This document shows, one piece after another, positions 24,803 through 51,441 of a DNA stretch of 64,000 nucleotides (position 1 is its first letter; each line of letters begins with the position of its first letter). The position numbers and the translations under genes were made by a program. The notes beneath the pieces were generated by a model, which saw only the letters and a program-made list of their open reading frames with translations, was not told where the DNA came from and ran no database searches. This stretch comes from a virus. The stretch covers positions 1 to 64,000 of IMG/VR virus record IMGVR_UViG_3300025141_000025; one strand, given 5' to 3'.

Positions 24803-25392
24803 TATAAAATAGTAGTATCAATATCCTCAATTTTCAATTGAGTGCATCCCCACAGCGCCATTACGAACGCATCAGCAATGTCAAAACAGAATGGTTCATC
24901 TATTTTTTCACCTTTACGGGGTCCCGATTTTAATATTTTTGTAGGCCAATCAAATTCCAACATTTCAGGTCGTTGCTTTGTCCAGTGTAAAACCTGCTCT
25001 TTGGTGTTTAGATCTGATTTTTTATCAATAGATATACCCACAGCCTTTCTTACTGATATCACGTTTCCTAAACATACCGGCACATCAAATATTGAACGTG
25101 ATATAAAGCTCACTATTCCATTGAACCGATTCAGCGTTGAAATTGTTTTTGCAGATGACATCCTGCTTCGAAACGCCTGTAAACTTTCTTCAATTACAAT
25201 TAGATCTACTTTATGTTGCCGGCTAACATCATGAAGTACGTCCTGGATAACGCAGGACTTTGCATAAAGGCCTTTGACCTTCGACATGGGTACCGCTATG
25301 GCTAGCAAATTTCGAACGTCCTGTGGGCCTTTAGAATCCATCAGGCATATACCGACATTTGATGTAGAAACATCAAGTCCTAAAACTTTCAA
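24802..25392 (-). CDS. ruvC: RuvC-like Holliday junction resolvase
   Basis: VLGLDVST (D), LIVIEES (E) and DIADA (DxxD) RNase H-fold catalytic motifs. Confidence 0.85.
   Translation of the reverse strand: MKVLGLDVSTSNVGICLMDSKGPQDVRNLLAIAVPMSKVKGLYAKSCVIQDVLHDVSRQHKVDLIVIEESLQAFRSRMSSAKTISTLNRFNGIVSFISRSIFDVPVCLGNVISVRKAVGISIDKKSDLNTKEQVLHWTKQRPEMLEFDWPTKILKSGPRKGEKIDEPFCFDIADAFVMALWGCTQLKIEDIDTTIL
24809..24837 (-). promoter_or_regulatory. Sigma70-type promoter (TTGAAA-17 nt-TACTAT) 6 nt upstream of the primase GTG
   Basis: Near-consensus hexamers with exact 17-nt spacing, inside the 3' end of ruvC. No SD fits before the start codon. Confidence 0.65.
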
Positions 25393-27878
25393 TAATCCAT
25401 CCTTAAACGAATTGTATAACGATCATCATCTCTTTTTACAACAGGTTGTGATAAATTTGCGCGTCCAATAACGTTTAAATTTTCATCATGTAATTGCAAG
25501 CCAGTAAGATAGACAAATTCCTTTGCAGTTTCATTAGCATTATCAGTCGGCATCATTTTTTTGAAACTTGGATTTGATGAAGAATTAAAAAGCCCCTTTT
25601 CGGCGGTAACATTTATTTCTAACACATGAATATTTCTTTCACCTTCGAAAGAAAGCTCCCAGGCATCGGCACCGAACAAGGGTAAATTTGGAGATTTAAT
25701 AATGATTATGCCTTCTTCATACATAACATTACCAACTGATGCCCATGTTGCATGTTTTGACTCAGCATCGGCTCGGTATAGATTACCTAGTCCGTCATCT
25801 TTAAGTGTAACCTGTACCCTACCATTCGTGCCTGTTACTGCCAAATCCTTTAAAACCACAGATTGGGGCTTGATCTGGTCTCCGTAAAACATATTTGATA
25901 TGTCAAAAAAGACGACCTCATTAGAGCTAGGATCTTTTGTTCTTTGTAAAATTGTAAGAATATTACCACCAGAAACTGCAGGATCTTCAGGTTTTGCGCC
26001 AATAACTGGGGTCAACATACCATCAGAGCCAGATGTTAGCTCATCACCGACCTCACCAACCTTTAGAAGACTTGCCGTGCTAACAAGATTGTTCAGGTCA
26101 ATCCTAGAAAGATCCAATCCACCAAAGTCATTTTTAAATCTATCAAGATCGCTCCCACTCACGGCATTTGTTAGGCTTCCTGTTAGTAACATTTGGAAAT
26201 TTGGTAAAAATTTTCCATTATCGCAAGGCAAAACTGAAATGTTTCTTTTTCTATTTGAACCTGATTCGTAAATAAAATAATTCGCTGTTCTTGCGATGGA
26301 AGTTGTTTCATTCACGCGGGCTGCCTGTAGACCATACGGGCGTGGATAAAACCCTCTTACAAATTCACGTGTGAAATTTTGTAAATTTAACTCATGGCCG
26401 CCAACACCAAATGACATTGCGACGTTGAACGGGTCATCAGAGGAACCTGTCGCATAAAAAAATGGAGTTTGATTTACGTAACGAGTTGGTGAAATCTTCG
26501 TAAAAAATGGTGGAACATAAAATAAAAGACCAGCTTCAGCAGATGAACCTGACACATAGGGGTTTGAACCGGTTACATTTGATCTTTTGAAATATGGATC
26601 AAAACTAAATCCTTTAATTGATGATGTGTAAATTTGATCAATGTTTCTATATCGATCAAAAATTTTCAAATCGTGAACTTCGGCGTTTAATGGGTGAGCT
26701 AAGGTTACATCGCTAGGGTCGGTTGTAATATTTTCATTTAGAATTACAGTCCCATATTCGGCTGCCGCCGTCGGATTAAAAAACCCCATAATGGGGTCAT
26801 CATCCCTGTTACTTCCTTCATAAAAATTACCAATAAAAACCGCGTCAGCATCATTTAGTTCCGGCTCATTCGTTATGGGTGCCATCACAGATGCACTCGT
26901 AATAACAAATGTAGATGCCTGCTTGCCGTCAATTACAAATGATCCAGTTCCTTCCTGGACACTACGACCACCCCACCTAACAGCGATGTGGTGCCATGTG
27001 TTTCTTTTTAGCGAATTATCAGGTGAAACAAATAAAAATCCTGTGTCGGCAGTCGCATTAGGAGCAGTTACAGTGTCACCCGTTATCGCAACAGAACTAG
27101 GTGGGATTTCAGCACTTTGACTTAACTGCAAAAGAATGCGATATCCATCTATTTTTCCGTCCTTTGCAACTGAACTGCCTGTGACTAAACTAATTGCGTA
27201 TGACGATGACATATGAAAAACAGTGCCTGCCTTAAAATGATCACCTAATGTTTCAGAAGTATATCTTGGATTTATGTAAAAGTCAAAAGTAAAACTAGAA
27301 CTGGGTGCATAAAAAGCAACATCTTCAAGGGCAACTGTGCCTGTACCAGCAGGATAAATCAGCGCAGTACTTTCAGGTAAACTTGAACATGTAACAAAAT
27401 TTAGTGAATGATAATTCGTATAAGAATACTGCATACTTGGATATATGCTACGATACCAAGGAAAAAGCACGTCTTTTACGACGCGTTTTCTTTGAAAGTC
27501 AGGATTTAATTTAGCTCCTGGCTCAAATCTAATCACCTTTTGTGTTTTTGAAAACATAGAAGATGAAACAAGCGAATTAACACCTGACAAATATGTCTCT
27601 GCTGAATTTCCTCCGTACCCTGCATTTTGACTGATACGAAATGCAGCATAACCGCGATCTATTTCTATATTATCATCGTCTGCCGGAGCACCCCCAGGCA
27701 CAAGATTGATAATATCCTTCATTGTGGATGTGCCATCGGCAAAAAGTGGCAAAGAACCAGTAATTCCCGGTGGTGTGATATGAGGAATATTAGTTGACGC
27801 AGACGTTATTGTACGTCTAGGATTGGCTAATAAAGTATACCTTTCGATATTGTCTTGAGTAATTTTTATGATTGACAT
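25389..27878 (-). CDS. Baseplate/tail structural protein with LamG (concanavalin-like) domain
   Basis: FTFDFYINP...WHHIAVRW...FVIDGK...DLKIFDR LamG pattern. C-terminal GLQLHDENLNVIGRANLSQPVVK tail-collar-like motif. Confidence 0.7.
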   Translation of the reverse strand: MSIIKITQDNIERYTLLANPRRTITSASTNIPHITPPGITGSLPLFADGTSTMKDIINLVPGGAPADDDNIEIDRGYAAFRISQNAGYGGNSAETYLSGVNSLVSSSMFSKTQKVIRFEPGAKLNPDFQRKRVVKDVLFPWYRSIYPSMQYSYTNYHSLNFVTCSSLPESTALIYPAGTGTVALEDVAFYAPSSSFTFDFYINPRYTSETLGDHFKAGTVFHMSSSYAISLVTGSSVAKDGKIDGYRILLQLSQSAEIPPSSVAITGDTVTAPNATADTGFLFVSPDNSLKRNTWHHIAVRWGGRSVQEGTGSFVIDGKQASTFVITSASVMAPITNEPELNDADAVFIGNFYEGSNRDDDPIMGFFNPTAAAEYGTVILNENITTDPSDVTLAHPLNAEVHDLKIFDRYRNIDQIYTSSIKGFSFDPYFKRSNVTGSNPYVSGSSAEAGLLFYVPPFFTKISPTRYVNQTPFFYATGSSDDPFNVAMSFGVGGHELNLQNFTREFVRGFYPRPYGLQAARVNETTSIARTANYFIYESGSNRKRNISVLPCDNGKFLPNFQMLLTGSLTNAVSGSDLDRFKNDFGGLDLSRIDLNNLVSTASLLKVGEVGDELTSGSDGMLTPVIGAKPEDPAVSGGNILTILQRTKDPSSNEVVFFDISNMFYGDQIKPQSVVLKDLAVTGTNGRVQVTLKDDGLGNLYRADAESKHATWASVGNVMYEEGIIIIKSPNLPLFGADAWELSFEGERNIHVLEINVTAEKGLFNSSSNPSFKKMMPTDNANETAKEFVYLTGLQLHDENLNVIGRANLSQPVVKRDDDRYTIRLRMDY

Positions 27879-27906: not shown

Positions 27907-29184
27907 TTAGAAGTCCAATCGAATTCGAAATGTGATGTCCCTCTCGTCACTTTTTTCAATTGGCCTCGAAACCTTCGCGACCGCCAATAAATTTCCAAAC
28001 TCATCATGAAGCCCCACAGTGGTGGGCATTGTGAATGTTCGCTGCACATCTTCCTGGCCGGAATCAACCACCTGGATCCTTCCATTCGTATCGACGAATG
28101 TTGGATTTGTGGAATAGTTGAATTCATCAGCTGTTGCACGACAAAAAACCAGAGTAGAATTGATATTTGTATTATTTTGAAATGTAGCTGCTGTCAATGT
28201 TCCTGATTGGAACCTTGTTGTGGCAACGTGATCAACAATGTCATCAATCGACCCGGAAACCAGAAAGTCAGGTATCAACTTGGCATTTGGATTTCCAACG
28301 GATGAACCCATAATTGTTTTTCCGGCTGCTACCGTGGCACCTGCGATGGTTCCACCGGCAAACATTGCATCGATTGTCCCTGACATCATTTGAGATCCTG
28401 AAAATACCTTCGCCATATCGAGAACGACCATTCCAGCATCATAAAAAATTAATCCAACAGATTCTGTCGTATCATTTGCATTTCTAATATTACCGACAGC
28501 ACCTCCAAATGTCCTTGTTTGACTAGTAGACGCGCCGATATCAGTAAAAATAGTTGATCCGGATATTGATGTTGATGACAAGTTTGGCTGTCCTGAGGTT
28601 GATAGAGCGCCATCCTCATCTTTTTTCGCAGAAGATCCGCTACGATACATTCTTACTGCGAATGTTTCACGTTTGAATCCGTCACGAGTGAACAGGCGCT
28701 TAAAAGACATGAAAAGGGCATCATCAATTCTATTTGTGGATGTAGCAGTTGGATCTGCAACAATTTGAAACGGAGCATAAAAAGCTTGATCTACATCACC
28801 AATAAGGGTTCCTGCATATTGCTTATAAATGTCAACTTTTTCTCGCATCATAAGTGATTGTGAAGGAAAAAGTTGCTTACCAGCGCTATCGTCATTGATG
28901 TGAGCATCCATGGTCGTACTGCCACTATACCACAACCCAACTGTCATGTCCACTATTGGGTTTGCCGTTTGCAGCGTGAAATCTTGATCGTAAACTGTTT
29001 GAAAAAGAGAAGATGTTACACCTGGTCCGATTCCTCCAGTAACAAAAACTTGATATGCCCGACGTGTTGAAGAACCTGACACATCCTCCTGCACAACATC
29101 AACCAATTGATTGAGAACTGATTTTGAAACCTTTATGTCTTCAGGTGAAATTCTTTTAAAACTACCGCCAACTACTCTTGCCAT
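27907..29184 (-). CDS. Baseplate/tail structural protein, C-terminally paralogous to 25389..27878
   Basis: FNYSTNPTF...TTVGLHDEFGNLLAVAKVSRPIEK...FRIRLDF versus FNSSSNPSF...LTGLQLHDENLNVIGRANLSQPVVK...IRLRMDY. Confidence 0.7.
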   Translation of the reverse strand: MARVVGGSFKRISPEDIKVSKSVLNQLVDVVQEDVSGSSTRRAYQVFVTGGIGPGVTSSLFQTVYDQDFTLQTANPIVDMTVGLWYSGSTTMDAHINDDSAGKQLFPSQSLMMREKVDIYKQYAGTLIGDVDQAFYAPFQIVADPTATSTNRIDDALFMSFKRLFTRDGFKRETFAVRMYRSGSSAKKDEDGALSTSGQPNLSSTSISGSTIFTDIGASTSQTRTFGGAVGNIRNANDTTESVGLIFYDAGMVVLDMAKVFSGSQMMSGTIDAMFAGGTIAGATVAAGKTIMGSSVGNPNAKLIPDFLVSGSIDDIVDHVATTRFQSGTLTAATFQNNTNINSTLVFCRATADEFNYSTNPTFVDTNGRIQVVDSGQEDVQRTFTMPTTVGLHDEFGNLLAVAKVSRPIEKSDERDITFRIRLDF

Positions 29185-29975: not shown

Positions 29976-31757
29976 TTAATTTTCATCAATCTTCAATTCA
30001 GCTGTCGTTGATTTTTGTAAATCTAGATTAATGATGTGCATCTTGTATTTTCCTTGTTGCGCAGATGTAACAAAGTTTTTATAAATAGAACCTACATTAT
30101 CATCACATATTCTCGCATCAGGGGTAAAATATACCTTTATAGAGTGCTTACCACTGTCAAAAATAGCATCTTGTGAAAAACTATCAACGGCTAAGTTTTC
30201 ATCCATATCAGGATCTATAAAAAAATTAGGATACTGCTTTGGTGCCCCTGGTCTCGAAATATTTTTTAGTTCAATTTCATTTTTTGTTATGTTAAATTTA
30301 ACGATCGTTTGGGCGGAATAACCCGATGTCAGGCCATGCGCGTCGACAGCACAAACAGCGTAAATCCATGGATCACTTTCTCTATTAAAGCCTGTATCTT
30401 CAAAAGATGTCACCATGCCGCGAAATTGCCTTACCAAACCCGAATCAATAGTTTCGGCCCGCAGGGTCTTGATGTCTGAATCGTCAAAGTCAAGCTCAGC
30501 AATGCACATAAAAGGATCATGTATCGATTTACGCTTAAAAATTTGAAAAAACTTTATATCTTGTGACCTTCCTACAGGTGCCTGCCATGAAAGTATCAAG
30601 CCCCTGCCTTTTCTATAGTTGAAACGAAACAACAATCCATCAGGGGTAGTAGGCGGTTCATGTTCAACCGTTTCCACAGTTGTTGCTACTGATGGTCTCG
30701 AAGCAATATAGGTTACTATTTTCATGCCAGAAGCAGTGCTATCCGTACCAGATGTATCTACAATTGCATCTATACGGTAAGTATTACGAACTGTGTATGA
30801 ATATTTTGTCCCATAGACAATGTTGTCATCAATATATTCCGTATTTTCCGTACCTTTAATAGGATAAGACTGCCAAGAAATAGGTAAACCATTTGGCGAA
30901 TATTGAGTTCTTTCAATGATATAGCCCACATGTCTCGCCCCTAACAACCTAGGTGTTTCTTTGGAATCTCTTATTTCTTCAGAACTGAATGCAGGGAGGT
31001 TCGGATAAATGTCACTTTGAGTAACACCTCTATTTGAACTCGCTATGTAAGCTTTGGAAATGGCAGTTGCGTTATTAGCTGAATACATTGCCGAAAGTGA
31101 TGATATATCTCCATATCCCGTAAGTGCCTTACCTGCTATTCTTTTGTTGACAAGCATATTGATATTGTTTTTTGCCCCAAAATCATAAAAATCTTTAGAG
31201 GCTGCATCGCTTTTAAAATTAACAAAAAGTTCACCTGGAAGAGGAGCGACTAACGGCTGTAATAGCGATTTTTCAACACCGGTTAATGTACTAATTTGCT
31301 CAGTTTGCTCGCTGTCAGCAATTGACAAACCTACAACATCACTAAGTGCTTCAAATTTCTCCCTAATACGATGTTTTACATCGGGATCAGACTCATGATA
31401 GGAGTAAAATGGACCTGTCGTGATTATCTCTTCATCAATTGCACTTGCGCCGTCCCATGTGGTGCCTTCTCTGCCGCCATCGGAGGTATTTTTTTCATCG
31501 CCCATGTTACCAAATTGCAAAATAGTCCCTGCCGAATAAGAAAGCTTTATGTATCGAGGAATTTGTTGGTTTAGCGAATTTCTATTAATCAACCGCTGTG
31601 TCTCTCCATCACCTATAGGACCTGGAATTCGCCTATCGCCTAGATCGTTGAGCCTTTCATCTGGAGTGAAAAAGTTATAAACAAACGTTGCGTTAATTTT
31701 AACGGGATCAGGTAGGTCTGCAACAGCAAATCTCCTGCTTGGTTTTGCCTGTGACAT
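29976..31757 (-). CDS. Large virion protein with fibronectin type III-like repeats
   Basis: GYIIER...YIDDNIVYGTKYSYTVR and LSWQAP...FQIFKR...YAVCAVDAHGLTS FN3-like patterns. Confidence 0.55.
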   Translation of the reverse strand: MSQAKPSRRFAVADLPDPVKINATFVYNFFTPDERLNDLGDRRIPGPIGDGETQRLINRNSLNQQIPRYIKLSYSAGTILQFGNMGDEKNTSDGGREGTTWDGASAIDEEIITTGPFYSYHESDPDVKHRIREKFEALSDVVGLSIADSEQTEQISTLTGVEKSLLQPLVAPLPGELFVNFKSDAASKDFYDFGAKNNINMLVNKRIAGKALTGYGDISSLSAMYSANNATAISKAYIASSNRGVTQSDIYPNLPAFSSEEIRDSKETPRLLGARHVGYIIERTQYSPNGLPISWQSYPIKGTENTEYIDDNIVYGTKYSYTVRNTYRIDAIVDTSGTDSTASGMKIVTYIASRPSVATTVETVEHEPPTTPDGLLFRFNYRKGRGLILSWQAPVGRSQDIKFFQIFKRKSIHDPFMCIAELDFDDSDIKTLRAETIDSGLVRQFRGMVTSFEDTGFNRESDPWIYAVCAVDAHGLTSGYSAQTIVKFNITKNEIELKNISRPGAPKQYPNFFIDPDMDENLAVDSFSQDAIFDSGKHSIKVYFTPDARICDDNVGSIYKNFVTSAQQGKYKMHIINLDLQKSTTAELKIDEN

Positions 31758-34700: not shown

Positions 34701-35854
34701 TCCAGGCGACCCATGCCGGCTGATATCAACATTTCATTAACAAACTGTGTGACCAACATTTTTGAACGTTTTAAAGGTAGCTTTTCTTTCATGTGAAAAA
34801 ATGGAGCGCATTTTGGAATAAACCCAAACGACAAGATCCTGAGTAGTGCCGAGGAGGAGGTGGCGCTGGGGCCTACTCTTACTGTTACAACGCCGGTGCG
34901 ATCATACGGCCCCCCTCTTGTAACAATATCTTTTCCTGTATGCTCATTACTGGGGGTGGTCTTATACGTTGTTTGGGCAGCAATATAAGAACTTTTCTTT
35001 TTTGTTCCTTTTTGCTGCCCAGCATGAAATAATTTTTTCTTCATTTCAGGGGTTAAATCATAAGAATATCCACGTGTCATATATTCATGAAATGACCTAA
35101 GGTTCATGCCGAGTATTGCTGTGTTCGTCTTTCCCTTTATGTATTCTTCATCCTCGGGGTGGGCTGGGCTGGCACAGATATTTTTGCACATTGTGACGTG
35201 ATCAGTTATGTATGAACCGCCATTTAAATTAAATAAAAACTCATCAAGTCCTCCATACTCTTCCGCAATTTCCCTAGCGTTGAGTGCAATTTGATTAGCG
35301 CCGGTGCCGGGAACAAGGTTTTTGTCAAAATGCCTAACTTCCCTAAGAATAGTATCAAGGGCATTCAGTGTATTTTTAGCAGATACAACATTGTTTTCAA
35401 TTGCCTCTTCAGCAGCCATGACTGCATCAGGGTCTTCTGCTTTTAGCTTTTCAATCAAACTGTTGGAGTATGCTGTTGACACTGCATCTTCAACAACGCA
35501 TGTTTTTAAAATGCTAAGAATAGGAGAATTATGTCCCCCAGAATTGTAAAAATCTAAAGTTCTCGATGTCACCACTGCCAGGGGTTCAGGTCTGTCATTT
35601 ATAAGCCCGACTTTTTCAGCAGGTGTTGAAGATGAATCTTCATTACCACCTTTGTTGCTTTTAGGATTAGGTTCTATGACCTCTATTACATCATCCTCAG
35701 TTTCTCGCGCTTCTTCCTTTGTATTTTTAGTAGGGGATTTATTTACAATTGGTTTTTGATCACGCTTATCAAAAGATTTTTCTTTTGTGGTTGTTTCACC
35801 TGCTTTGTGTTGTGCCTGTGATCCGACATTGGCCTGTATATCTCTTAATGCCAT
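31757..35854 (-). CDS. Large hypothetical protein (1365 aa), probably virion-associated
   Basis: Long uninterrupted ORF in the tail module. No recognised domain. Confidence 0.75.
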   Translation of the reverse strand: MALRDIQANVGSQAQHKAGETTTKEKSFDKRDQKPIVNKSPTKNTKEEARETEDDVIEVIEPNPKSNKGGNEDSSSTPAEKVGLINDRPEPLAVVTSRTLDFYNSGGHNSPILSILKTCVVEDAVSTAYSNSLIEKLKAEDPDAVMAAEEAIENNVVSAKNTLNALDTILREVRHFDKNLVPGTGANQIALNAREIAEEYGGLDEFLFNLNGGSYITDHVTMCKNICASPAHPEDEEYIKGKTNTAILGMNLRSFHEYMTRGYSYDLTPEMKKKLFHAGQQKGTKKKSSYIAAQTTYKTTPSNEHTGKDIVTRGGPYDRTGVVTVRVGPSATSSSALLRILSFGFIPKCAPFFHMKEKLPLKRSKMLVTQFVNEMLISAGMGRLDNTELGKQYGVAGNNTLAHVMETFTGSPGNHHDHAGNTGQSLSSIFIVDSGGNPTSYQSKGSKIKIFDGNTIPIPSNAKNKGVWSATDYFAKAVARGPLKNRMSNYDESLQNASSKIAEGLEFFQQLHNRDNDLKILTPKKLFTRILKEVNESIGKLGHSMTNISASGHFALQELAMFAKVGEHFENDDHQTHTNMARMMLFKLACTHAYKELSGTDSNVWGSSPDYVAGVQNETTTTVKVKKNGGPQDTFVIKSSSDKKGHEEKGVEVSDTIAFSTDDADFFENGQLPAIAMVAYCAGLEHVTKGMGNQSNTMTVPWGKEGNLGTLQRSSGGEHGAGLDNIMDLYTEFLTSPAAASLCKRLADVFIECHEEAREIAKSGPSKSNFLNGNRYTRASGLDAGTLMGMIFETAAALAFQFSPVTHGWGRLSLGGDRDQSDVLHDLMIPMVDMAWKYGDPFPSGFLLGGVSQTKADEVANILNGMWLNLQLVGEPGTNIHSALNTLINCSETNDFTSAYDDNDNIPALGTDATHQTVVSSGYPVVHDVTYRTIERIFTDLALEREIPFALLLSNAGFIKYCCDSQNSLITIGNELRKSVTPRDELVDFTTFVKTAVGENFIPSFTDSSLTIAKERMARVLEAKNSPVYRNAKITTGEMNAIQVLISKIASLTSESVVFSFIGLPADFYREIILPKFHLINGFDTAPEYASIDVTIKSYDVFSSSARSNLSKTFSAERLIDSNSFKNLQPDMTFENIVDAVKLKNGLFGHQFIKAAIAPDKAREMLTNEVNSHLCKKMFSIICAGNFFAHDLVDFNYNERDPGSRDLANLFAKVSKIKNLDFSKVFDPPKGKRTGTEYKPTKLMGLTGVSLRAEAWVQHVDFLPLSFGAADMFADLFSSLLFNSSLLSSFIFSPGYFDKTMCLYYTPDDFAPVEEDDDIVVMDGGHEVMNDDNEKNIDKTPSSVSIRTYECYADVGEPIIVEGIR

Positions 35855-44800: not shown

Positions 44801-45465
44801 CTGTAATTCGAAGTTGTGTGTATTTCACCATTCAGGTATATTTTCATTCCTGCATATGCAGTATTCCCGCCGCTGCCGTCATATGTGAAAACAAGATGAT
44901 TCCACACTCCATTTAAATCACTTGTAGGGATATCTGAGGTTGATCGTATGCTTTGTGTTTTTGAGTTATCCTGATCATTTATGGCGAAGACTAATTGGTC
45001 GTAGTCAGCGTCCAGGTAAGCGTAGTACTCCGTAACGGAGGAAGTCCCCTTGCCAAAAAGATATGAAAGACCAGATGATGCGACGTTAGTAAAGTTTATC
45101 CACAAGCTTATCGAGAAAGCAGTATCGGAACCTGCTGCGGTCGTAGCTTCATCAGCTAAGCTAACATGTGATAGTATACCTGAACTTGGAGGTGTGACTG
45201 ACACATGCTGATTGGATGAATCGTTCGATGTGAATGTAAATCTAAGTGCGCCGCCCGGTGGATCCAGAGACTGGAGTTGACCGGCGGTTGGGCTATTTAG
45301 ATATATAGAAGTTAAATTATACGAAGCGTTGTCAGTCGGCGTTCCCGTTGTCATTTGTAACCACAAGACGAGACGCTCGGCAGCTGAGGCAGAGTAGCGA
45401 TTGCCTAAATTATCTTTAAACGGGCAATTAAGATCGTAATATTTTCCTTTTAGTTTTCTAGGCAT
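41872..45465 (-). CDS. Large baseplate/receptor-binding protein with N-terminal LamG domain (1197 aa)
   Basis: FSISLWINF...WNHLVFTYDG...MKIYLNG...ISEFAMW...LSAADVKAIYN LamG signature. Confidence 0.75.
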   Translation of the reverse strand: MPRKLKGKYYDLNCPFKDNLGNRYSASAAERLVLWLQMTTGTPTDNASYNLTSIYLNSPTAGQLQSLDPPGGALRFTFTSNDSSNQHVSVTPPSSGILSHVSLADEATTAAGSDTAFSISLWINFTNVASSGLSYLFGKGTSSVTEYYAYLDADYDQLVFAINDQDNSKTQSIRSTSDIPTSDLNGVWNHLVFTYDGSGGNTAYAGMKIYLNGEIHTTSNYSSDSGYLSMKRDDDDTLKVGASYQSDTEPDAQISEFAMWSGYALSAADVKAIYNITKLDNGTVSGIISNPTRIMLQDQDNHTGSYPTLARTGDPDFLGTYPSRFDDTNTIVFSTDSNIIYPTGLPESGPGSKFISGGVATPNALQGLKTVGSCSAGIADTHISFTPGESITPFNESRVTLDNETAFYTTGTASGTLPGFAQRLSSKTILTIDINPTETTRVALSTGTLPNAEGLAEGVNSGLAYFNFQQKKWEIVGDLTTGSNVDYLNKDQAVVTGSMLSIIPAEYIGTNLATWDMQPFNGGLGGPTDVAGFPYATKFNATSSQLYNTTASITAPFLLEKVEMRFSGVIGTYPVLAASEQMQITTFMLVLQREQPVTASVETFFETYRYNVDKLEVTGTTFDSNTDKSIIWYGRIGTYFTHSFATEAALSSSFPGTWSAADLWLPQGGAYPTGSFVLRGTPNIPCKQPRVGAAFFGRGYGAGTPGTLFGRQKGGRDLRDRADGRSFIRSVIGSQVVSSSVSFMALAAGGYIPFDAYLHESRESPFVLLPGDKLVLMHSHQGAVGDPASANAPSEVNIAKEYVNNLEPGGGTLTLFGSLLQDNLPVEQKSNQPLTSDAIHEDLHYDNPVYDQWDVEPEQALTGSYVDLIITGTMFATGADGSYGNPAVDNVRGVVASVARGQAGTTGSLQRFVRLTDSIGTVYDSYPPNALEVIKASGKGLFGTALSNAAIAVGAPTGSYYIHALGGQDLSGSDTQWYMRPAYEIKHQRFLAQSFRGTRLSVFDGDNELEGAGEVKQLDTAYIFGSGSAYGIATVSSDERGNYIDSPGARKNTTRWLWGFGDGAYNLPTPDLKVSAFGFFISTPIMRGYKYGLGGIFGSRVDSRWRRDRFGQFRDMLEQRKYPVTLDSKGGLSYPVEIIFVPQDSQSGETTDPAKTHSQNLDTYATSTMPYYDGQVKDRLDNPDIVLEPIEVNIDVS

Positions 45466-45466
45466 T

Positions 45467-46408
45467 TTATTTCTTTAACCCTCCATACACAATGGAATCA
45501 TACGTATAATTGTCATTTTGTGAAAAGACAAAACCGTGCCTGGCAATGATCTCATCTTCTCTTGTATTTTCAGTTCGAAACGCCTTGTAGGATGTGGAAG
45601 CACTTACGAAGCCGTCCACCAAGACGTGCCTAATTTCTGTGTCAAGTGTTCCCGAGGCATAAAAAAGCTCTCGCTGAGTTGTGTCAGTAAACGGCAACAT
45701 GTTGGAATCTGCATCAGAAAAAGCGCCTGGTAAATCAACACCACCGAATGCCTCTTGGCTGTCTAAAAATGGCCTAGTGGAGCTATTTTTTAGATTTTTT
45801 TTGTCGTCAAATACTAAGCTTTCTCTTTTTGCATTTGTAGCGCACATGTCGCCTTTTATTGAATGTGAAACATACGGAAGCTCTATTGATGACCTATCAA
45901 CAACTTTTCTAATATCCAGAGGTTCAATCACACCGTCCATCGTAAGCGGAGAAGCAGTAACCTGGACTAGGCTTATCGGTAGTGAAACCGCAAGCGGGTT
46001 TGTCATCATAAACTCTACAGGGCTAGATTCCAAGGAGGTGGCCTCGACAAACGGCGAGCTATCGTTGTATGATAAGGACTGCCCCAGGTCTCGCCTGTCA
46101 ACAGTGTGGTAAACAACCTGGCCCAGTTTACCTGTCGTGTCAATGTTTGCTAATGATCCGGTGCCACTCGTTCCTAGATTTTCAGATATTACTGATTCGT
46201 TAAAAAAATCCTGTGTTTGTGGAACCTCATTAAGTGTTGTAACAAGCCCGGTATTCGAACGAATTTTTACTATTGTGTAATTTGTTAATTGGTGTGGCTG
46301 GCGTAGATTTGTTCCCTGCAAAAAAGGAGAGTGCGAAGATGAATAGTGTAGGACACTGGTTTCGTCAGTTCCGTTTTGCCAAATTGATCCTGTTGTCGCG
46401 CTTGCCAT
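45467..46408 (-). CDS. Hypothetical baseplate-region protein
   Basis: 313-aa ORF translationally coupled to both neighbours. Confidence 0.65.
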   Translation of the reverse strand: MASATTGSIWQNGTDETSVLHYSSSHSPFLQGTNLRQPHQLTNYTIVKIRSNTGLVTTLNEVPQTQDFFNESVISENLGTSGTGSLANIDTTGKLGQVVYHTVDRRDLGQSLSYNDSSPFVEATSLESSPVEFMMTNPLAVSLPISLVQVTASPLTMDGVIEPLDIRKVVDRSSIELPYVSHSIKGDMCATNAKRESLVFDDKKNLKNSSTRPFLDSQEAFGGVDLPGAFSDADSNMLPFTDTTQRELFYASGTLDTEIRHVLVDGFVSASTSYKAFRTENTREDEIIARHGFVFSQNDNYTYDSIVYGGLKK

Positions 46409-49400
46409 TAAAATTTCCTCACTGTGCCAACCAGTTGCTGCAGCAATATCACTTCCTTACCACCCCTGTCTTCTTCACCCAAGTACAGGTCATAATATTT
46501 ATATGAAAATTTTGCGCGCTCTAAGGCATGTGATTCAATCACATAAGATGTACCAGAAAATTTTGCATCGTGAGGAAGCATTTGTTCTAAAATATCCCCA
46601 ATGGTGTCATCAAAAAACTTAAAGAATTCAAAAAATGACTGTAAATTAACCTTGTCAGTTAGCCTGTTAAAGTAAATTCTGCGTAAATTTCTCATGTGTG
46701 GATAATTTTGTGAAAAAACCAACTCTGGACTTCCAATAACGTTGTCTAACTTATCTAGGGTCGCAAAAATATTCATTATATCTTCGTTCAATCCCTGTGT
46801 TGTTGAAATTTCTATCGCCACCCTTTTATCATCATTTGGTTGATCATTTTGTGGTATTTCGTACAGGGGTGCAGTCGCGGCGTCATGTGTGTCAATGTTA
46901 TTTTGCTGTTTATAACTACGAATCCTTATTTTATTTGGATTTTCACCTGATTGGAAATTTGAACTGAGAACTTCAAAATCGTATCTTTCAGGTTTTATGA
47001 TTCTTTTTGATACTTCAAATCCTGTTCCAGCAAAAGTTAAATAATTTTGACTAAAATCAAATGCAGTCAGACGCCCAGACACATTTGATTCTGTTGTTGG
47101 CTGATCCAATGATATATCCTGTCGCAGACACTGAAATGAGCCACTCATGTTCGTTACAAAATTAAAATTAACCTCGGGATCAGTGACACCTAAAGACTTG
47201 TAGTTTCTAACATGCGTCTTTGTCTCCTGTTCTGAAAGGCTTTTACTCCAAAATCTTAAATTTGCAACTTTACCCGTGAATGTTGTTGTACGACTGTTAC
47301 TTTCAATAGATGTGTTGTTTAGAAATTTTCCGCCAGAAGTATCCAAGCTTTGACTGCCGATTACCATGAATGACCCGCTAGCATTATAAGCCACTGATCG
47401 TCTTTGTAGCGAGTTTGGTGTTATGGAGTCGTCATATAAACTTGAAGTTGTATAATATTGCTCCATTCCCGCAGGGCTAAATTTGGCTGCCCTCAAAAAA
47501 TATGAAGACGAAACGTAAGATTCAAATAAATCATTTCTTTCGCGACCGAAAGAAACATACCACTTTCCACCGTCGAATATGTCCACACCTGTTAATATTA
47601 GTTGTAATGTAGGTGCTGCTGTGCTTGTTGTGGGATGTCCGTATAATGTTATTGAACCCGTTACACTAGAGGCAGGTTCTGGTTTTTTTGCCACACAATT
47701 AAATAATGTGCCATGCTTATTTGAAGGCGCTGTAGTGCCTGTGACATGCATTCTGGCCAAACTTTGATATTGTGGATGAATAAATTTAGCGTCAAATTTG
47801 TACCTACCTTCCCATGTCCAGGATCCTGATGTGAACAAGCCATCACTTGACTTGTCTGTACCTGTCACAGGATGAACTAACCCTGTTCCTCCATTTCCCC
47901 ACACCCTAGGTAAACCTGGCTCTGTCCTAGAACCTGACAAAAAGCTACCCTGTAAAAATGGCCGGCTACCATCTATTCCATGAAAATTTAATGTTCCCTG
48001 TGAACCAAATGTACCGCTCATGTCTAGCATAGCAGCTATTTCATTTCTTCTGATGTAAGAGTCACCGAGTGTTCTTAGTTTTGATCCGCCAAACTCTCTA
48101 ATTCTAATTGGTCCATTTGAAGAAATTCCCATACTGGCAAGTGTTGCCCTAATTGATTGATGGGTTCCACGTGTAGAAAATAAAAACGGCAATTCAGAAA
48201 AAATTCTTCTCCAAATTGTATTTTGAATTGTTTGTAATGATGTGGTTTGTGCCCTGTCCAGTCTCACGTCCTGACCCTCGAAAAATTGAACAATGTTGGC
48301 CGAGTCAAATAGGGACGGTAATTTTATACCATAATAGCGTGACAGCCATGGCAACATTTGATTGCTAACAGTTTCATTTGATAAATGATCTACCTTTAGC
48401 AATCTTTTAAATTCATCAACAAACATTTTTAGTTCATCAAATGTTTTAGCAAAAGTAAAGAGCATACCTGCAATAATCTGAGGTTGTCCAATTACAGCGC
48501 CCCCAGGTTGATCAATATTTGTTGCGACAGTATCTGATAAGTTTCCATTTTCTTGAGAAAAGCCTTCCGCGGCAGAGGCGTCAGTTAGGTAGTGAGGCGG
48601 AATTAATTTTGTCACCAAGTTTGGATTATTGGAATCATAAAGAGATGCAGACAATAAAAGCCTGGAACTAAGGTTTGTAATATCGCCAAAAGACGGAAAA
48701 AGGCATATTGTAGACATTCTCGACTCACCCAAAACAGGTGATGTCCCGAAAGAAGATGTGTTCCTCAATGACATAGAAAAATTAGAAATTGTTGAATGTA
48801 GCGCATTTCCACTTGAATCTAAAACTAAACTTTCACCAGAACCATCATAGCTTCCTGACGGTTCATTAAATCTAAAAAATAGTTTTAGTTTTGGATCGGC
48901 AAATATTTCATTGAATCTTTGCGTTTTAATTTCTGTTTGTGTCTTTGCCTTATGCCAAAATCTAAAATCATCAATGGCACCTGACAGTGTTTCTACAGGG
49001 GTAAAAATATATGAATTTTGTGAATGAACTGATCCGCTTCCTATGTAAGCGGGCGAAGTTTTGAAATCTATTTTACCTAAGTGACCAAACGATGATGATG
49101 CCTTTTGCACAGCATTATTATACATTTTAATTTGGCCGGGTCCTGCAGATCTATCGAATACAGCAGCAATATGTTGAAATTCGCCTTTTGTAACTTCTAA
49201 AGAAGCCGATAAATTTAATGATGATGAACTTATTAGACAAAAAAGATCCGCTGTTGCAGTTGATGTAGATTGCGATAAAAATAAAGTGACCCCGTTACTA
49301 CCACTTAATTTTTGTAATATTACCTGATTATCGTTAGCAGTTGTTGGCACAGAAAAATGAAATTCAACTGTAAACGGTTTTGTATCGGGATCTAGGACAC

Positions 49401-49890
49401 TTTCGCCTGTTGGACTTTTTGTCAGTGTCGGCTGTGTTGAACCTTTAAAATCATTTACCGTTATATAACTTCCGGGTTCTGTTGCTGAATTTGAACCGCT
49501 AAAAGACAAATATCCTACGTGCACAGGAAAATTATCATAAACATGCTTTTCAAAACCTGACAATTTGTCAACAAATGTTATTATTTCGCTTTTACTGTCA
49601 TCAAACGGCATTTGATTTATTATCTTGGAAAATGCCAGCTGTGTTTTCGCTTCTGCACTATTAAAGAATGTGTGGTTATGAAATTTTGAAAAATCTACAT
49701 TTAGTTGCTGAGTACTTTTTAGAGGCGAACCTGGAGCATCAAACCTAAAAGTTCCAGTCAACACCAACGCACTATTGTCAAGATCACTAAGGGAAACGTC
49801 TTTAATTGGTGACCCATTTTTCGAAGATCTTGTAATTCCTGCTTTAAACAACAGGGAATCATCGGCTAATGTATTTTTTTCTTTTGCCAT
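46408..49890 (-). CDS. Baseplate wedge protein (gp7/P2 gpI-like core) with two LamG domains
   Basis: MLPWLSRYYGI...WRRIFSELPFLFSTRGTHQSIRATL (gpI-like LPWL...KGT pattern) flanked by LamG motifs (FQHIAAVFD...IDDFRFW; WYVSFGR...VANLRFWSKSLS). Confidence 0.7.
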   Translation of the reverse strand: MAKEKNTLADDSLLFKAGITRSSKNGSPIKDVSLSDLDNSALVLTGTFRFDAPGSPLKSTQQLNVDFSKFHNHTFFNSAEAKTQLAFSKIINQMPFDDSKSEIITFVDKLSGFEKHVYDNFPVHVGYLSFSGSNSATEPGSYITVNDFKGSTQPTLTKSPTGESVLDPDTKPFTVEFHFSVPTTANDNQVILQKLSGSNGVTLFLSQSTSTATADLFCLISSSSLNLSASLEVTKGEFQHIAAVFDRSAGPGQIKMYNNAVQKASSSFGHLGKIDFKTSPAYIGSGSVHSQNSYIFTPVETLSGAIDDFRFWHKAKTQTEIKTQRFNEIFADPKLKLFFRFNEPSGSYDGSGESLVLDSSGNALHSTISNFSMSLRNTSSFGTSPVLGESRMSTICLFPSFGDITNLSSRLLLSASLYDSNNPNLVTKLIPPHYLTDASAAEGFSQENGNLSDTVATNIDQPGGAVIGQPQIIAGMLFTFAKTFDELKMFVDEFKRLLKVDHLSNETVSNQMLPWLSRYYGIKLPSLFDSANIVQFFEGQDVRLDRAQTTSLQTIQNTIWRRIFSELPFLFSTRGTHQSIRATLASMGISSNGPIRIREFGGSKLRTLGDSYIRRNEIAAMLDMSGTFGSQGTLNFHGIDGSRPFLQGSFLSGSRTEPGLPRVWGNGGTGLVHPVTGTDKSSDGLFTSGSWTWEGRYKFDAKFIHPQYQSLARMHVTGTTAPSNKHGTLFNCVAKKPEPASSVTGSITLYGHPTTSTAAPTLQLILTGVDIFDGGKWYVSFGRERNDLFESYVSSSYFLRAAKFSPAGMEQYYTTSSLYDDSITPNSLQRRSVAYNASGSFMVIGSQSLDTSGGKFLNNTSIESNSRTTTFTGKVANLRFWSKSLSEQETKTHVRNYKSLGVTDPEVNFNFVTNMSGSFQCLRQDISLDQPTTESNVSGRLTAFDFSQNYLTFAGTGFEVSKRIIKPERYDFEVLSSNFQSGENPNKIRIRSYKQQNNIDTHDAATAPLYEIPQNDQPNDDKRVAIEISTTQGLNEDIMNIFATLDKLDNVIGSPELVFSQNYPHMRNLRRIYFNRLTDKVNLQSFFEFFKFFDDTIGDILEQMLPHDAKFSGTSYVIESHALERAKFSYKYYDLYLGEEDRGGKEVILLQQLVGTVRKF

Positions 49891-49896: not shown

Positions 49897-51441
49897 TTAT
49901 CCATTAACCTTAAAGATAGTATCCCTATTTTGAACAAGGTAACTAACGCCCCTCTCTACTATATAGAAATCAAAGGCATATGACCTACCGACCACCAGAG
50001 CCTGCATTTTAAAATCAAAAAACATACCATCTGTGTCTGTTGAAACCTTGGTTGAATTAGTGGTATTGTCATATGGTATGATAATTTTGCCGGTAACACG
50101 ATCAACAACCTGATAATATAAATCGTCAAAAATTACCGATGGTCTGTTTATCGGGATTTTTACAGGGGCATTTTCCTCATTAATGAGATCACGACCATAC
50201 AATCTAAATTTAACAGTATCGTTCTTGTGATAACCTGTGTCAGCATTGGTCACAATAATCTGTGGTTCTCTAGATATAAATTCCCCACCCCTACGATCAG
50301 GTTTTTTCAATGTCACTGTCCCTGTGTGATATGTCACAGTTCCGTCAATAGAGTTCCAATAAGTGGTAAAATCAACCTCACCAGTATTGGTAAGTAATTT
50401 TGCAATAGATTCTGTTTTTGTATGTTTACCCGTTTCTACAGATGCCATGGCAAATGATGCCGAATAAAGACCTGTAACACCGGATCCATCAGTTCCTGCC
50501 GTATGCTGACTGCCTGTTACATAAAAATTGAACAATCCTTTATTTAGCTGCAAAATAAAACAGTTCTGTCCCGTGATTGCAGATAAACTTGATCCACTAA
50601 CTAGATTGGCGCGGGCTGACCTATCATACGAGTTCAAAAATAATGTTCCACTCGAGTCAAAATTAAAATTCTTATGACTATCAACAATGGAATCATCAAA
50701 CTTAACTACTAACCTAGGTCTCAGTAACGGATTTGCAACATGCCTAGACGCGAACCTTTTTACAAATCTAGATTTCTTATCATTTTCTTGTGATCCGCTA
50801 AAAGACAATCTAAAACCAACATCAGGAATTTGTGATGCGACTGTTGCAGATACGATATTTGTAACATCAATTGATAAATCCTCCGTACCAAGGGTAAATG
50901 CCTGTTTTTTCTCAAACGATGCAACACCATTTCCGTCGCTAAGGTTTCCTGAACTTATGTAATCAATATCAGCTGAACCTAATAGGCCACCCGCATTTGC
51001 ACCTGATGCAAACCAGACGTTGTTGTCGGTTGTATAAGATGCTGTGAGAAAATTGGCCACGTGAACATCATCGAATTTACCCGTATCGAAACCTTCACCT
51101 TCATCAAATGTCTGTGATAGTGGATAAACTGATAGTGTGAAATTCCTAGGAACTGCGTGCCCAGTCATAATATCCTTCATTTCTAACACAGCCCTAAAAT
51201 TACTTGAATTTAAATTTAATATCGTTCCTGTTAGCTGTGTAATGGGTTGAAGGTCAAACCTTACCATGGCTCTTGATAATTCCAACTGTGATGATGTTCC
51301 ATTTAGTGTTGTTTCATTATAAAGCTTAAAAAGATCCAATGTGGATGCCTGTCCTACATTGGCATCTGTAACCCTCAGGTTTCCGTCTATAATTTTATCT
51401 GTGATATAAGTGTCAGAACTAGCTGTGCATACAATAATCAT
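49897..51441 (-). CDS. Baseplate protein with DNRLRE-like (carbohydrate-binding type) domain
   Basis: ASSDTYI...NVG...SRAMVRFDL...VYPLSQTFDEG...DVTNIV...GFRL...FASR...RPRLVV pattern. Confidence 0.6.
   Translation of the reverse strand: MIIVCTASSDTYITDKIIDGNLRVTDANVGQASTLDLFKLYNETTLNGTSSQLELSRAMVRFDLQPITQLTGTILNLNSSNFRAVLEMKDIMTGHAVPRNFTLSVYPLSQTFDEGEGFDTGKFDDVHVANFLTASYTTDNNVWFASGANAGGLLGSADIDYISSGNLSDGNGVASFEKKQAFTLGTEDLSIDVTNIVSATVASQIPDVGFRLSFSGSQENDKKSRFVKRFASRHVANPLLRPRLVVKFDDSIVDSHKNFNFDSSGTLFLNSYDRSARANLVSGSSLSAITGQNCFILQLNKGLFNFYVTGSQHTAGTDGSGVTGLYSASFAMASVETGKHTKTESIAKLLTNTGEVDFTTYWNSIDGTVTYHTGTVTLKKPDRRGGEFISREPQIIVTNADTGYHKNDTVKFRLYGRDLINEENAPVKIPINRPSVIFDDLYYQVVDRVTGKIIIPYDNTTNSTKVSTDTDGMFFDFKMQALVVGRSYAFDFYIVERGVSYLVQNRDTIFKVNG

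What the first reader, a model, noticed from the sequence alone, without database searches (positions are those of the whole stretch)
25389..51441. (S/T)-G-(S/T) tripeptide saturates virion-surface proteins: candidate sequon for a phage-encoded virion glycosylation system
Seen (manual, approximate counts): SGS/TGS/SGT/TGT occurs about 12 times in 829 aa (25389), 8 in 425 (27907), 4 in 319 (39028), 15 in 1197 (41872), 4 in 313 (45467), 14 in 1160 (46408) and 6 in 514 (49897), roughly one per 75 aa. There are about 6 each in sheath and capsid protein. Only about 3 occur in some 4000 aa of enzymes (SbcCD, TerL, primase, RuvC, GTs, nuclease, epimerase, dehydrogenase, sigma). Composition alone does not explain it: 8 of 11 (S/T)G dipeptides in the 425-aa protein and 12 of 17 in the 829-aa protein are followed by S/T. 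The copies are dispersed rather than tandem and use both TCN and AGY serine codons, so selection acts on the peptide. SAS/SSS variants are also common. Established: glycosylation systems use short sequons (N-x-S/T; D-S/T-x in Bacteroidota), and some phages glycosylate capsid and tail proteins with their own glycosyltransferases. Inference: (S/T)-small-(S/T) is the acceptor sequon for the GT4/nucleotide-sugar/carbamoyltransferase cluster at 57792-64000, giving a glycan-coated virion. I know of no description of this sequon.
Basis: partly seen in the sequence, partly recalled or inferred. Interest (0 to 1): 0.88.

Follow-up and report, generated by a model that had tools for sequence, protein, structure and literature searches.

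The report
Ser/Thr-Gly-Ser/Thr tag on phage tail proteins
The outer baseplate and fibre proteins of this uncultured marine T4-like phage, and of thousands of relatives including two cultured phages, carry the tripeptide Ser/Thr-Gly-Ser/Thr four to six times more often than chance; it behaves like a tag read by some other factor, possibly a sugar-adding enzyme, but nothing shows a sugar is attached and the link to the neighbouring sugar genes is weak.

Summary
All seven counts reproduce exactly: 63 motifs in 4757 aa against 14.3 expected, and SGS is the most over-represented tripeptide (z 10.4). The signal lies in the peptide, not the DNA. It needs Gly in the middle and a hydroxyl residue on both sides.

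The excess comes from about 30 conserved positions per large protein, kept with S/T swaps across homologs of 32-56% identity. In an AlphaFold model these positions sit at loop/strand junctions of LamG-like sandwiches. All 40 related IMG/VR loci show the excess, as do the cultured Microcystis phage Mel-JY01 and Flavobacterium phage immuto. T4 and cyanophage P-SSM7 do not.

Two lineages lost the sites together in two protein families, so the fold does not need them. That points to a constraint from outside the protein. O-glycosylation is the leading candidate (about 0.4).

The proposed link to the adjacent cluster is weak. The motif-poor lineages keep both GT4 genes with intact catalytic motifs. 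The nucleotide-sugar genes vary without any relation to motif density. New sites are not in excess, and the capsid sites are not conserved.

This scan found the same motif earlier on other DNA. Glycoproteomics on immuto or Mel-JY01 would decide the question.

The parts
49897..51441 (-). 514-aa protein directly after the gp6-like gene; 6 motifs (1.4 expected)
   Evidence: Four sites (215, 264, 282, 373) are kept in most relatives with 44-74% gp6 identity. They are replaced by unrelated residues in four motif-poor lineages.
46408..49890 (-). 1160-aa multi-LamG baseplate protein at the position of T4 gp7; 14 motifs (3.5 expected)
   Evidence: Pfam Laminin_G_3, 67 bits. AlphaFold model pLDDT 82.6. 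Foldseek matches LamG, pentraxin and neurexin folds. 108 homologs have a median of 12 motifs against 2.6 expected. Sites 285 and 688 are kept in 91 of 108.
45467..46408 (-). 313-aa protein; 4 motifs (0.95 expected)
   Evidence: Orthologs carry 1-7 motifs and the positions vary.
41872..45465 (-). 1197-aa LamG_3 protein; 15 motifs (4.4 expected)
   Evidence: Orthologs at 43% identity keep 8-9 of the 15 sites.
40055..41074 (-). 339-aa right-handed beta-helix protein; 4 motifs (1.5 expected, p 0.06)
39028..39987 (-). 319-aa protein; 4 motifs (0.64 expected)
27907..29184 (-). 425-aa protein of a very large, highly conserved family of unknown function; 8 motifs (1.5 expected)
   Evidence: More than 3800 homologs; the 120 listed are 66-84% identical. 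Sites 36, 208 and 327 are invariant or nearly so; sites 87, 182 and 262 vary. The AlphaFold model failed at pLDDT 32.
25389..27878 (-). 829-aa protein with a weak LamG_3 match; 12 motifs (1.9 expected)
1248..4412 (-). Tail sheath, 1054 aa; 6 motifs, all in the extra N-terminal 615 aa and none after residue 617; the segment matching the sheath family runs 616-1053
   Evidence: p 0.025. The Mel-JY01 sheath has 5 against 1.7 expected.
9054..10925 (-). Major capsid protein; 6 motifs (1.8 expected); the sites are not conserved in relatives
4519..5856 (-). 445-aa neck/tail protein with a weak gp15-like match; 4 motifs (0.68 expected)
29976..39017 (-). Three large proteins of the same module (593, 1365 and 1050 aa) with no excess (1, 3 and 0 motifs)
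   Evidence: No family match.
51451..53786 (-). gp6-like and gp25-like inner baseplate proteins; 0 motifs
57792..60247 (-). Tandem GT4 glycosyltransferases (GT4b 57792-58970, GT4a 58970-60247), the candidate modifying enzymes
   Evidence: Pfam Glycos_transf_1. EX7E present. The pair was found in every relative whose locus reached that far upstream, including the motif-poor ones.
60279..61145 (-). PD-(D/E)XK nuclease, always next to the GT4 pair
61103..64000 (-). Variable sugar cassette: SDR epimerase, UDP-sugar dehydrogenase and a carbamoyltransferase cut by the window end
   Evidence: Beyond the window come a cupin, a PfkB kinase, a cytidylyltransferase-like gene and a second epimerase. The content differs between relatives.
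56768..57508 (-). Sigma-70-like factor between the GT4 pair and the baseplate genes
   Evidence: NCBIfam sigma70-ECF, 22.9 bits, below the cut-off.

Best explanation
[ST]-G-[ST] is a conserved short linear motif placed at loop/strand junctions of outward-facing beta-sandwich and beta-helix modules. It occurs in the distal baseplate and fibre proteins and in the outer part of the sheath.

Shown: it is kept by a constraint that does not come from the fold itself, and that constraint can be switched off for a whole lineage.

Inferred: the flanking Ser/Thr hydroxyls are acceptor or recognition sites for a soluble phage-encoded modifying enzyme acting in the cytoplasm during assembly. O-glycosylation is the most likely modification. 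The clade's core tandem GT4 pair is the prime candidate for the first sugar, and the variable neighbouring cassette would supply and tailor the sugars.

Not shown: any covalent modification, which residue accepts it, or which enzyme acts.
For: 1. The excess is large and specific. [ST]G[ST] is 4.06x. [ST]G[ND] is at or below expectation, [ND]G[ST] ranges from about 1 to 2.3x, and [ST]A[ST] is 1.6x. It lies at the peptide level.
2. Sites are conserved as a class with S/T swaps on both flanks across 108 homologs of 32-56% identity. They are also kept in orthologs of four proteins.
3. The fold does not need the motif. A well-supported clade of four homologs (99*), sister to the window's clade, and one separate lineage carry 1-3 sites instead of about 12. 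About 5000 aa of LamG-rich orthologous and neighbouring proteins in locus L013 have O/E 1.16.
4. In those lineages the S/T flanks are lost far more than equally conserved control columns (difference -0.30). In 200 random sets of five homologs the difference is 0.007 +/- 0.06 and none is as low. The Gly is kept like other Gly columns.
5. The same lineages also lost the sites of the unrelated 514-aa family. The loss is therefore concerted across proteins.
6. In the model, 0 of 14 sites lie in long helices and 12-13 lie in loops or at strand ends, in several different structural settings.
7. The excess is absent from inner baseplate, portal, terminase and other enzymes.
8. The clade carries a conserved block of soluble glycosyltransferases with no sign of lipid-carrier machinery in the stretches examined. 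GT4a homologs occur in only 9 of 50,697 phage records. The four of those phages that were tested, counting the four immuto records as one, all show the excess: immuto 2.8x, Mel-JY01 4.5x, LR756508 2.6x. RM378 and TJE1 were not tested.
9. T4 (about 0.6x) and P-SSM7 (1.5x) lack both the block and the excess.
10. immuto DNA gave dA, dC, dT and fdPreQ1 only (bioRxiv 10.1101/2023.04.13.536721). This argues against DNA as the target of the enzymes.
Against: - All four motif-poor lineages keep the GT4 pair. The catalytic motif is intact in every copy that could be aligned.
- Sugar-supply genes vary without relation to motif density.
- Rare or young sites are not in excess (1.7 per protein against 2.6 expected). 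There is no sign of selection for density as such.
- A need for S/T on both sides of Gly is unusual for a sequon.
- In immuto the motif also forms regular strand-turn-strand arrays. It lies beside YadA/Hep_Hag-like repeats, where such tripeptides are plainly structural.
- The capsid sites are not conserved.
- The two GT4s fit no curated protein O-glycosyltransferase family; GtfA scores 15 bits against a cut-off of 575.
- Solvent exposure could not be computed.
- The motif-poor lineages were picked by their low counts.
Confidence: 0.4

Rival explanations
1. A structural habit of the clade with no modification. S/T-G-S/T would be this clade's preferred way to end or start a beta-strand: Gly for the turn and hydroxyl side chains capping the backbone. 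It would be inherited with a shared stock of LamG, beta-helix and fibre-shaft modules and kept site by site by ordinary purifying selection.
For: - The excess rests entirely on conserved positions, with no excess of new sites.
- Sites sit at strand boundaries with hydrophobic neighbours: Y/F at -2, V/L at -1, L/F at +1.
- The Gly is retained even where the flanks change.
- immuto fibres use the motif in periodic strand-turn-strand arrays and next to Hep_Hag-like repeats.
- Some sites resemble the LamG_3 'l-t-G-x-F-T' strand; this is recalled from memory and was not tested.
Against: - Homologs of the same folds do without it.
- The loss is concerted across two unrelated protein families in the same lineages and is specific to the S/T columns.
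- Asn and Asp, the usual turn residues, are not enriched beside the Gly.
- The sites occupy several different structural settings, and only 1 of 14 is a two-residue hairpin.
- T4 and P-SSM7 baseplate and fibre proteins lack it.
Confidence: 0.32
2. A lineage-wide constraint from outside the protein without glycosylation. Candidates are another modification of Ser/Thr (phosphate or acyl), recognition by an assembly chaperone or decoration protein, or an ecological pressure on exposed loops such as protease resistance or weak binding to host polysaccharide, which disappears after a change of host or habitat.
For: The loss is concerted, cross-protein and specific to the S/T flanks while the GT4 pair stays intact. 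This fits a factor other than these enzymes. The motif is confined to outer modules.
Against: No candidate kinase, acyltransferase or binding protein was found in the window. The kinase-like match inside the 1160-aa protein lacks the catalytic residues. Generic pressures do not explain the strict pattern of Gly between two hydroxyl residues. The marine cyanophage P-SSM7 lacks the excess.
Confidence: 0.18
3. The GT4 pair and its cassette have nothing to do with the virion. They would modify phage DNA or host envelope glycans, and their position next to the baseplate genes would be incidental.
For: - The pair always sits beside a PD-(D/E)XK nuclease.
- In immuto and Mel-JY01 the block is far from the baseplate genes.
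- It persists where the motif is lost.
- Most GT4 enzymes act on lipid-linked or small acceptors (general knowledge).
- The moraphage paper lists DNA and virion as open options (PMC12619734).
Against: immuto DNA shows no glycosylated nucleoside. No flippase, polymerase or initiating transferase was seen in the stretches examined.

This rival concerns the enzymes only and leaves the motif unexplained. It can be true together with either of the first two rivals, so the confidences do not sum to one.
Confidence: 0.45

Closest known systems
Virion glycosylation of mycobacteriophages by phage-encoded glycosyltransferases (Freeman et al. 2023, Cell Host Microbe; known here only through its citation in PMC12619734)
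   Same: Soluble phage-encoded glycosyltransferases with methyl or tailoring enzymes. The proposed target is Ser/Thr of virion proteins, modified in the cytoplasm.
   Different: There the glycans sit on C-terminal tails of capsid and tail-tube subunits. Here the candidate sites are dispersed internal loops of baseplate and fibre proteins, the tail tube is not involved and the capsid only weakly. Modification is proven there and unproven here.
Short glycosylation sequons: N-x-S/T, and the Bacteroidota O-glycosylation motif D-(S/T)-(A/I/L/V/M/T) (general knowledge)
   Same: A three-residue motif with a hydroxyl acceptor, often followed by a hydrophobic residue (38 of 68 sites here).
   Different: Those systems transfer a preassembled glycan outside the cytoplasm from a lipid carrier. 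Here no lipid-carrier genes are seen, both flanks must be S/T, and occupancy is unknown.
Aah/TibC heptosylation of the AIDA-I and TibA autotransporters (general knowledge)
   Same: Cytoplasmic glycosylation of many Ser/Thr at turn positions of a repetitive beta-structure. A heptose-type sugar route (PfkB kinase plus cytidylyltransferase-like gene) lies just beyond the window.
   Different: Those enzymes belong to the heptosyltransferase (GT9-like) family, not GT4, and recognise a structural repeat rather than a tripeptide.
GtfA/GtfB GT4 pairs that O-glycosylate serine-rich proteins of Gram-positive bacteria
   Same: A tandem pair of GT4 genes, soluble, with Ser/Thr acceptors.
   Different: No membership: GT4b scores 15 bits against a cut-off of 575 for GtfA. 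Both copies here keep EX7E. The acceptors there are long Ser-rich repeats.
YadA-like head / Hep_Hag repeats of trimeric autotransporter adhesins (PDB 7o23, 3s6l)
   Same: SGS/SGT/TGT-type tripeptides recur as turn elements of a trimeric beta-roll. The immuto tail spike matches these repeats at E 6e-10.
   Different: The window's own proteins are LamG-type with dispersed, non-periodic sites. Only a 0.059 E-value hit to YadA_anchor was seen.

Membership tests
Phage virion O-glycosylation system (mycobacteriophage type) | Phage-encoded glycosyltransferases with intact catalytic motifs | tested here: met
   Two GT4 genes above the Pfam cut-offs. EGFGLxxLE is present in both.
Phage virion O-glycosylation system (mycobacteriophage type) | Glycan shown covalently bound to virion proteins | not testable with these tools
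   Needs mass spectrometry or glycan staining of virions. Cultured relatives exist: immuto and Mel-JY01.
Phage virion O-glycosylation system (mycobacteriophage type) | Acceptor sites in C-terminal tails of capsid and tail-tube subunits | tested here: not met
   Sites are internal and dispersed in baseplate and fibre proteins. The Mel-JY01 tube has 0, and capsid sites are not conserved.
Protein glycosylation sequon | Short linear motif enriched and conserved in the target proteins | tested here: met
   4.06x excess. Conserved with S/T swaps in 108 homologs.
Protein glycosylation sequon | Motif and enzyme gained or lost together across genomes | tested here: not met
   Four motif-poor lineages keep the GT4 pair; EX7E is intact in every copy aligned. 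UGDH and epimerase are uncorrelated with motif density. The only co-occurrence is at the level of the whole clade.
Protein glycosylation sequon | Sites in solvent-exposed loops | tested here: inconclusive
   Secondary structure of the AlphaFold model places 12-13 of 14 sites in loops or at strand ends and none in long helices.
GtfA/GtfB accessory-Sec glycosyltransferase pair | Match to the curated GtfA/GtfB models | tested here: not met
   TIGR02918 scores 15.2 bits against a cut-off of 574.6 for GT4b, and nothing for GT4a.
Laminin_G_3 / ConA-like lectin fold (carrier domains) | Pfam match and fold match | tested here: met
   PF13385 scores 67 and 57 bits in the 1160- and 1197-aa proteins. Foldseek gives LamG, pentraxin and neurexin at E down to 2.5e-10.
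Gly-centred tight beta-turn as a purely structural motif | Motif required by the fold: kept in all homologs, in one structural setting | tested here: not met
   Homologs lack it. Only 1 of 14 sites is a two-residue hairpin. The Gly alone is partly retained.
T4-type DNA glycosylation | Glycosylated (hydroxymethyl) nucleoside in virion DNA | not testable with these tools
   Not tested for this phage. For the cultured relative immuto, published HPLC-MS lists dA, dC, dT and fdPreQ1 only.

The most novel reading that the evidence does not exclude
A three-residue O-glycosylation sequon, hydroxyl-Gly-hydroxyl, is read in the cytoplasm by a phage-encoded tandem GT4 pair. It decorates some 60 or more loops on the distal tail proteins of a very abundant clade of aquatic T4-like phages. 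Swappable sugar cassettes would give each lineage its own virion 'serotype'. Some lineages have dropped the coat altogether.
Probability: 0.28. Interest if true: 0.85.

Novelty: new variant of a known kind. Interest (0 to 1): 0.62.

Why it matters
If the motif is an acceptor site, it would be the first sequon described for phage virion glycosylation. It would apply to a globally abundant group of aquatic phages: more than 2200 homologs of one carrier protein in a library clustered at 50% identity.

A sugar coat on baseplate and fibres would bear on host recognition, virion survival in water, grazing and adsorption. It would also give a function to the glycosyltransferase genes that are core to these large phages and currently unassigned.

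Even without modification, the result stands that a tripeptide can be held at dozens of positions across unrelated proteins and then released all at once in a lineage. That is a clean case of a constraint from outside the protein. Because two cultured phages share the trait, the question can be answered directly at the bench.

Tried and rejected
- DNA-level motif: rejected. The 69 sites use 58 distinct 9-mers with mixed TCN/AGY codons.
- Composition or GC artefact: rejected. O/E does not correlate with a GARP/FYMINK proxy for GC (rho -0.04). Relatives at 31-34% GC still show 3.8-4.5x.
- General property of T4-like baseplate proteins or of marine phages: rejected (T4; P-SSM7).
- Intrinsic hallmark of LamG_3 domains: rejected as sufficient. 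LamG-rich proteins of locus L013 show 1.2x.
- Avoidance of labile Asn-Gly or Asp-Gly: rejected. N and D before Gly are at expectation (0.90 and 1.01).
- Density-driven turnover, as for a glycan shield: not seen.
- A replacement motif in the motif-poor lineages: none found.
- Kinase-like stretch in the 1160-aa protein (E 5e-4 to STK24/25): judged spurious, because the catalytic Asp and Asn are absent.
- AlphaFold model of the 425-aa protein: unusable at pLDDT 32.
- PHROGs gave nothing for the nine fibre-set proteins. PDB sequence searches gave nothing useful for the 425- and 1160-aa proteins.
- Atlas look-ups of the two large proteins without the excess were uninformative.
- Literature searches for a described phage sequon found none. 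Freeman 2023 was not held.
- The whole genome was not available, so gene content of motif-rich and motif-poor genomes could not be compared.
- A GT4a-GT4b complex prediction was not run, because a pass would have moved the odds little.
Full report
**What the window is.** All genes lie on the minus strand. PHROGs and Pfam identify a distant T4-like myovirus: sheath, gp13/gp15-like neck, major capsid protein, portal, large terminase, SbcC, primase, and gp25- and gp6-like baseplate wedge. After gp6 comes a run of large proteins with no PHROG match. Three of them carry Laminin_G_3 domains and one a right-handed beta-helix. The closest cultured relatives by capsid protein are Microcystis phage Mel-JY01 (35%) and Flavobacterium phage immuto (45%). 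Its gene set resembles the 'moraphages', in which four glycosyltransferase families are core genes of unassigned function (PMC12619734).

**The observation.**
- The seven proteins hold 63 [ST]G[ST] in 4757 aa, against 14.3 expected from composition shuffles, with p between 0 and 0.013 per protein.
- Across the nine proteins of the fibre set, SGS is the most over-represented tripeptide (z 10.4).
- The excess is specific. [ST]G[ST] is 4.06x. [ST]G[ND] is at or below expectation, [ND]G[ST] ranges from about 1 to 2.3x, [ST]A[ST] is 1.6x and [ST]S[ST] is 1.5x.
- It survives control for dipeptides (Fisher p 3e-9) and is absent from the rest of the window.
- Codons are mixed, so the signal is in the peptide.
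- Flanks are hydrophobic and poor in charge: Tyr 4x at -2, Val 3.7x at -1, Leu/Phe at +1.
- The gp6- and gp25-like proteins, portal, terminase, other enzymes and three large neighbouring proteins (593, 1365 and 1050 aa) show no excess.
- All six sheath sites lie in its extra N-terminal 615 residues, and none lies after residue 617; the segment matching the sheath family runs 616-1053.

**How the sites evolve.**
- The 1160-aa protein has 2255 homologs in a library clustered at 50% identity.
- 108 full-length homologs (32-56% identical) carry a median of 12 motifs against 2.6 expected.
- Individual sites are held as a class. Sites 285 and 688 are kept in 91 of 108, site 916 in 75 and site 838 in 61, with S and T exchanging on both flanks.
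- Orthologs of four proteins in IMG/VR contigs behave the same way.
- The excess comes from about 30 shared positions. Rare sites occur at 1.7 per protein against 2.6 expected by chance, so nothing suggests selection for sheer density.
- In typical lineages the motif's S/T columns are as conserved as other columns of equal conservation; the difference is 0.007.

**Structure.** An AlphaFold model of the 1160-aa protein built on 56 homologs reached pLDDT 82.6. Foldseek matches it to LamG, pentraxin and neurexin folds. None of the 14 sites lies in a long helix, although about a fifth of the protein is helical, and the mostly helical stretch 346-624 has no site. One site is mid-strand. The others sit directly before a strand (688, 744, 838), directly after one (131, 625, 717), in a two-residue hairpin (196) or in longer loops (285, 345, 916). 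The settings differ, so this is not one structural element.

**The key natural experiment.** Five homologs carry only 1-3 motifs. Four of them form a well-supported clade (99*) that is sister to the window's own clade. The fifth lies elsewhere in the tree and is also the most divergent by gp6.
- In these proteins the sites read NG, DG, AG and the like.
- The S/T columns are lost far more than equally conserved control columns (-0.30; none of 200 random sets is as low). The Gly columns are kept like other Gly columns.
- The same four contigs also lost the conserved sites of the unrelated 514-aa family, there including the Gly.
- About 5000 aa of LamG-rich proteins in locus L013 show O/E 1.16, with no replacement motif.

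The folds therefore do not need the motif, and the constraint can be lifted for a lineage across proteins. This is the behaviour expected of sites read by some factor outside the protein. One caveat is that these lineages were chosen by their low counts.

**Testing the link to the sugar genes.**
- The cluster holds two GT4 genes, a PD-(D/E)XK nuclease, an SDR epimerase, a UDP-sugar dehydrogenase and a carbamoyltransferase. Beyond the window come a cupin, a PfkB kinase, a cytidylyltransferase-like gene and a second epimerase.
- The order PD-(D/E)XK, GT4a, GT4b, sigma-like gene, gp25, gp6, 514-aa, 1160-aa was found in every relative whose locus reached that far.
- All four motif-poor contigs keep the GT4 pair. 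The catalytic motif is intact in every copy that could be aligned.
- All 40 IMG/VR relatives with enough downstream sequence show pooled O/E of 2.7-5.5. Among the 24 with the full 10 kb upstream in view, that holds whether or not UGDH and epimerase lie there.
- Two motif-poor lineages have a different cassette, with a homologous GT2 that is absent from motif-rich loci in range. This is a lead from two cases only.
- Covariation therefore does not support the adjacent cluster as the reader of the motif.

In favour of a link:
- The same nuclease and GT4 pair, together with GT2, methyltransferase and aminotransferase genes, exists in immuto and Mel-JY01, far from their baseplate genes.
- GT4a homologs occur in only 9 of 50,697 phage records.
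- The proteins downstream of gp6 in these phages share the excess: Mel-JY01 4.5x, immuto 2.8x and the 484-kb phage LR756508 2.6x.
- T4 (about 0.6x) and cyanophage P-SSM7 (1.5x) have neither. This is one clade-level coincidence, not repeated covariation.
- Published HPLC-MS of immuto DNA lists dA, dC, dT and fdPreQ1 only. That weakens DNA as the target of these enzymes.
- No flippase, polymerase or initiating transferase was seen in the stretches examined.

**Against a sequon.**
- S/T is required on both sides of the Gly, which is unusual.
- New sites are not in excess.
- Capsid sites are not conserved.
- In immuto the motif forms periodic strand-turn-strand arrays, including a recurring [ST]GSF[ST]GSFxGD unit. 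It lies beside Hep_Hag-like repeats, where such tripeptides are structural.
- The GT4s belong to no curated protein-glycosylating family. Their nearest solved relatives are generic GT4 enzymes.

**Verdict.** The motif is best read as a conserved loop tag held by a lineage-wide constraint from outside the protein. O-glycosylation of its hydroxyls by soluble phage enzymes is the single most likely mechanism (about 0.4). A purely structural habit of the clade (about 0.32) and another outside factor (about 0.18) remain serious rivals.

The proposed coupling to the cluster at 57792-64000 is not supported by covariation and rests on clade-level co-occurrence only. The same [ST]-G-S excess was noted earlier in this scan on other DNA (e1-5319143, e1-5389586, e1-5328142). 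I treated those notes as leads. My tests add the retained GT4 pair in motif-poor lineages, the concerted loss across proteins, the lack of new-site excess, and the negative controls. I found no published description of such a sequon.

Noticed in passing
window 27907-29184 (-): This 425-aa protein belongs to an extremely large and conserved family: more than 3800 hits, with the 120 listed 66-84% identical, mostly from marine metagenomes. It has no Pfam, PHROG, NCBIfam or PDB match, and the AlphaFold model failed (pLDDT 32). It is probably a core virion protein of unknown role.
   Followed up: partly
window 57792-61145 (-); L096 4807-8726; L097 3929-8856: The trio PD-(D/E)XK nuclease, GT4 and GT4 is a fixed block across the clade, including the cultured phages immuto and Mel-JY01. 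The sugar-supply genes beside it change from phage to phage. GT4a is better conserved than gp6 (about 51-66% against 44-50% identity in the more distant relatives).
   Followed up: partly
L014 6016-6774 (-) and L015 7077-7802 (+): The two motif-poor lineages whose upstream DNA was read both carry a homologous GT2 (26% identity, E 7e-20) near the nuclease/GT4 block. No homolog was found in the window or in the motif-rich IMG/VR loci within range. With only two cases this is a lead, not a correlation.
   Followed up: partly
L011 378-2835 (just beyond the window's high end): A PfkB-type sugar kinase, a small cytidylyltransferase-like gene, a cupin and a second SDR epimerase lie upstream of the carbamoyltransferase. 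The layout is reminiscent of ADP-heptose-type nucleotide-sugar synthesis.
   Followed up: no
L092 34656-38466 (Flavobacterium phage immuto): A 211-aa protein and the 1053-aa tail spike share recurring units of the form [ST]GSF[ST]GSFxGD. The spike's C-terminal part matches YadA/Hep_Hag head repeats of trimeric autotransporter adhesins (PDB 7o23, E 6e-10).
   Followed up: partly
window 46408-49890 (-), residues 507-618: A weak sequence match to human STK24/25 kinase domains (E 5e-4) lies in the helical middle of the 1160-aa protein. The catalytic HRD Asp and Asn are missing and the DFG triad reads EFG, so it is probably chance.
   Followed up: partly
window 1-1218 (-): A second ORF with weak sheath-like matches (phrog_23, Gp18 domain III) lies directly downstream of the 1054-aa sheath gene and runs off the window.
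   Followed up: no
window 56768-57508 (-): A 246-aa protein with a weak sigma-70/ECF match sits between the GT4 pair and the baseplate genes, in the same place in all relatives. It is a candidate late sigma factor.
   Followed up: no
L012 17855-23339: In one motif-poor relative the genes after the LamG proteins encode large RCC1/WD40-like repeat proteins instead of the fibre proteins seen in the window.
   Followed up: no
window 9054-10925 (-): The major capsid protein (623 aa) is about 80-100 residues longer than those of Mel-JY01, immuto and T4. Four of its six motif sites lie before residue 354, where the match to the capsid family begins.
   Followed up: partly
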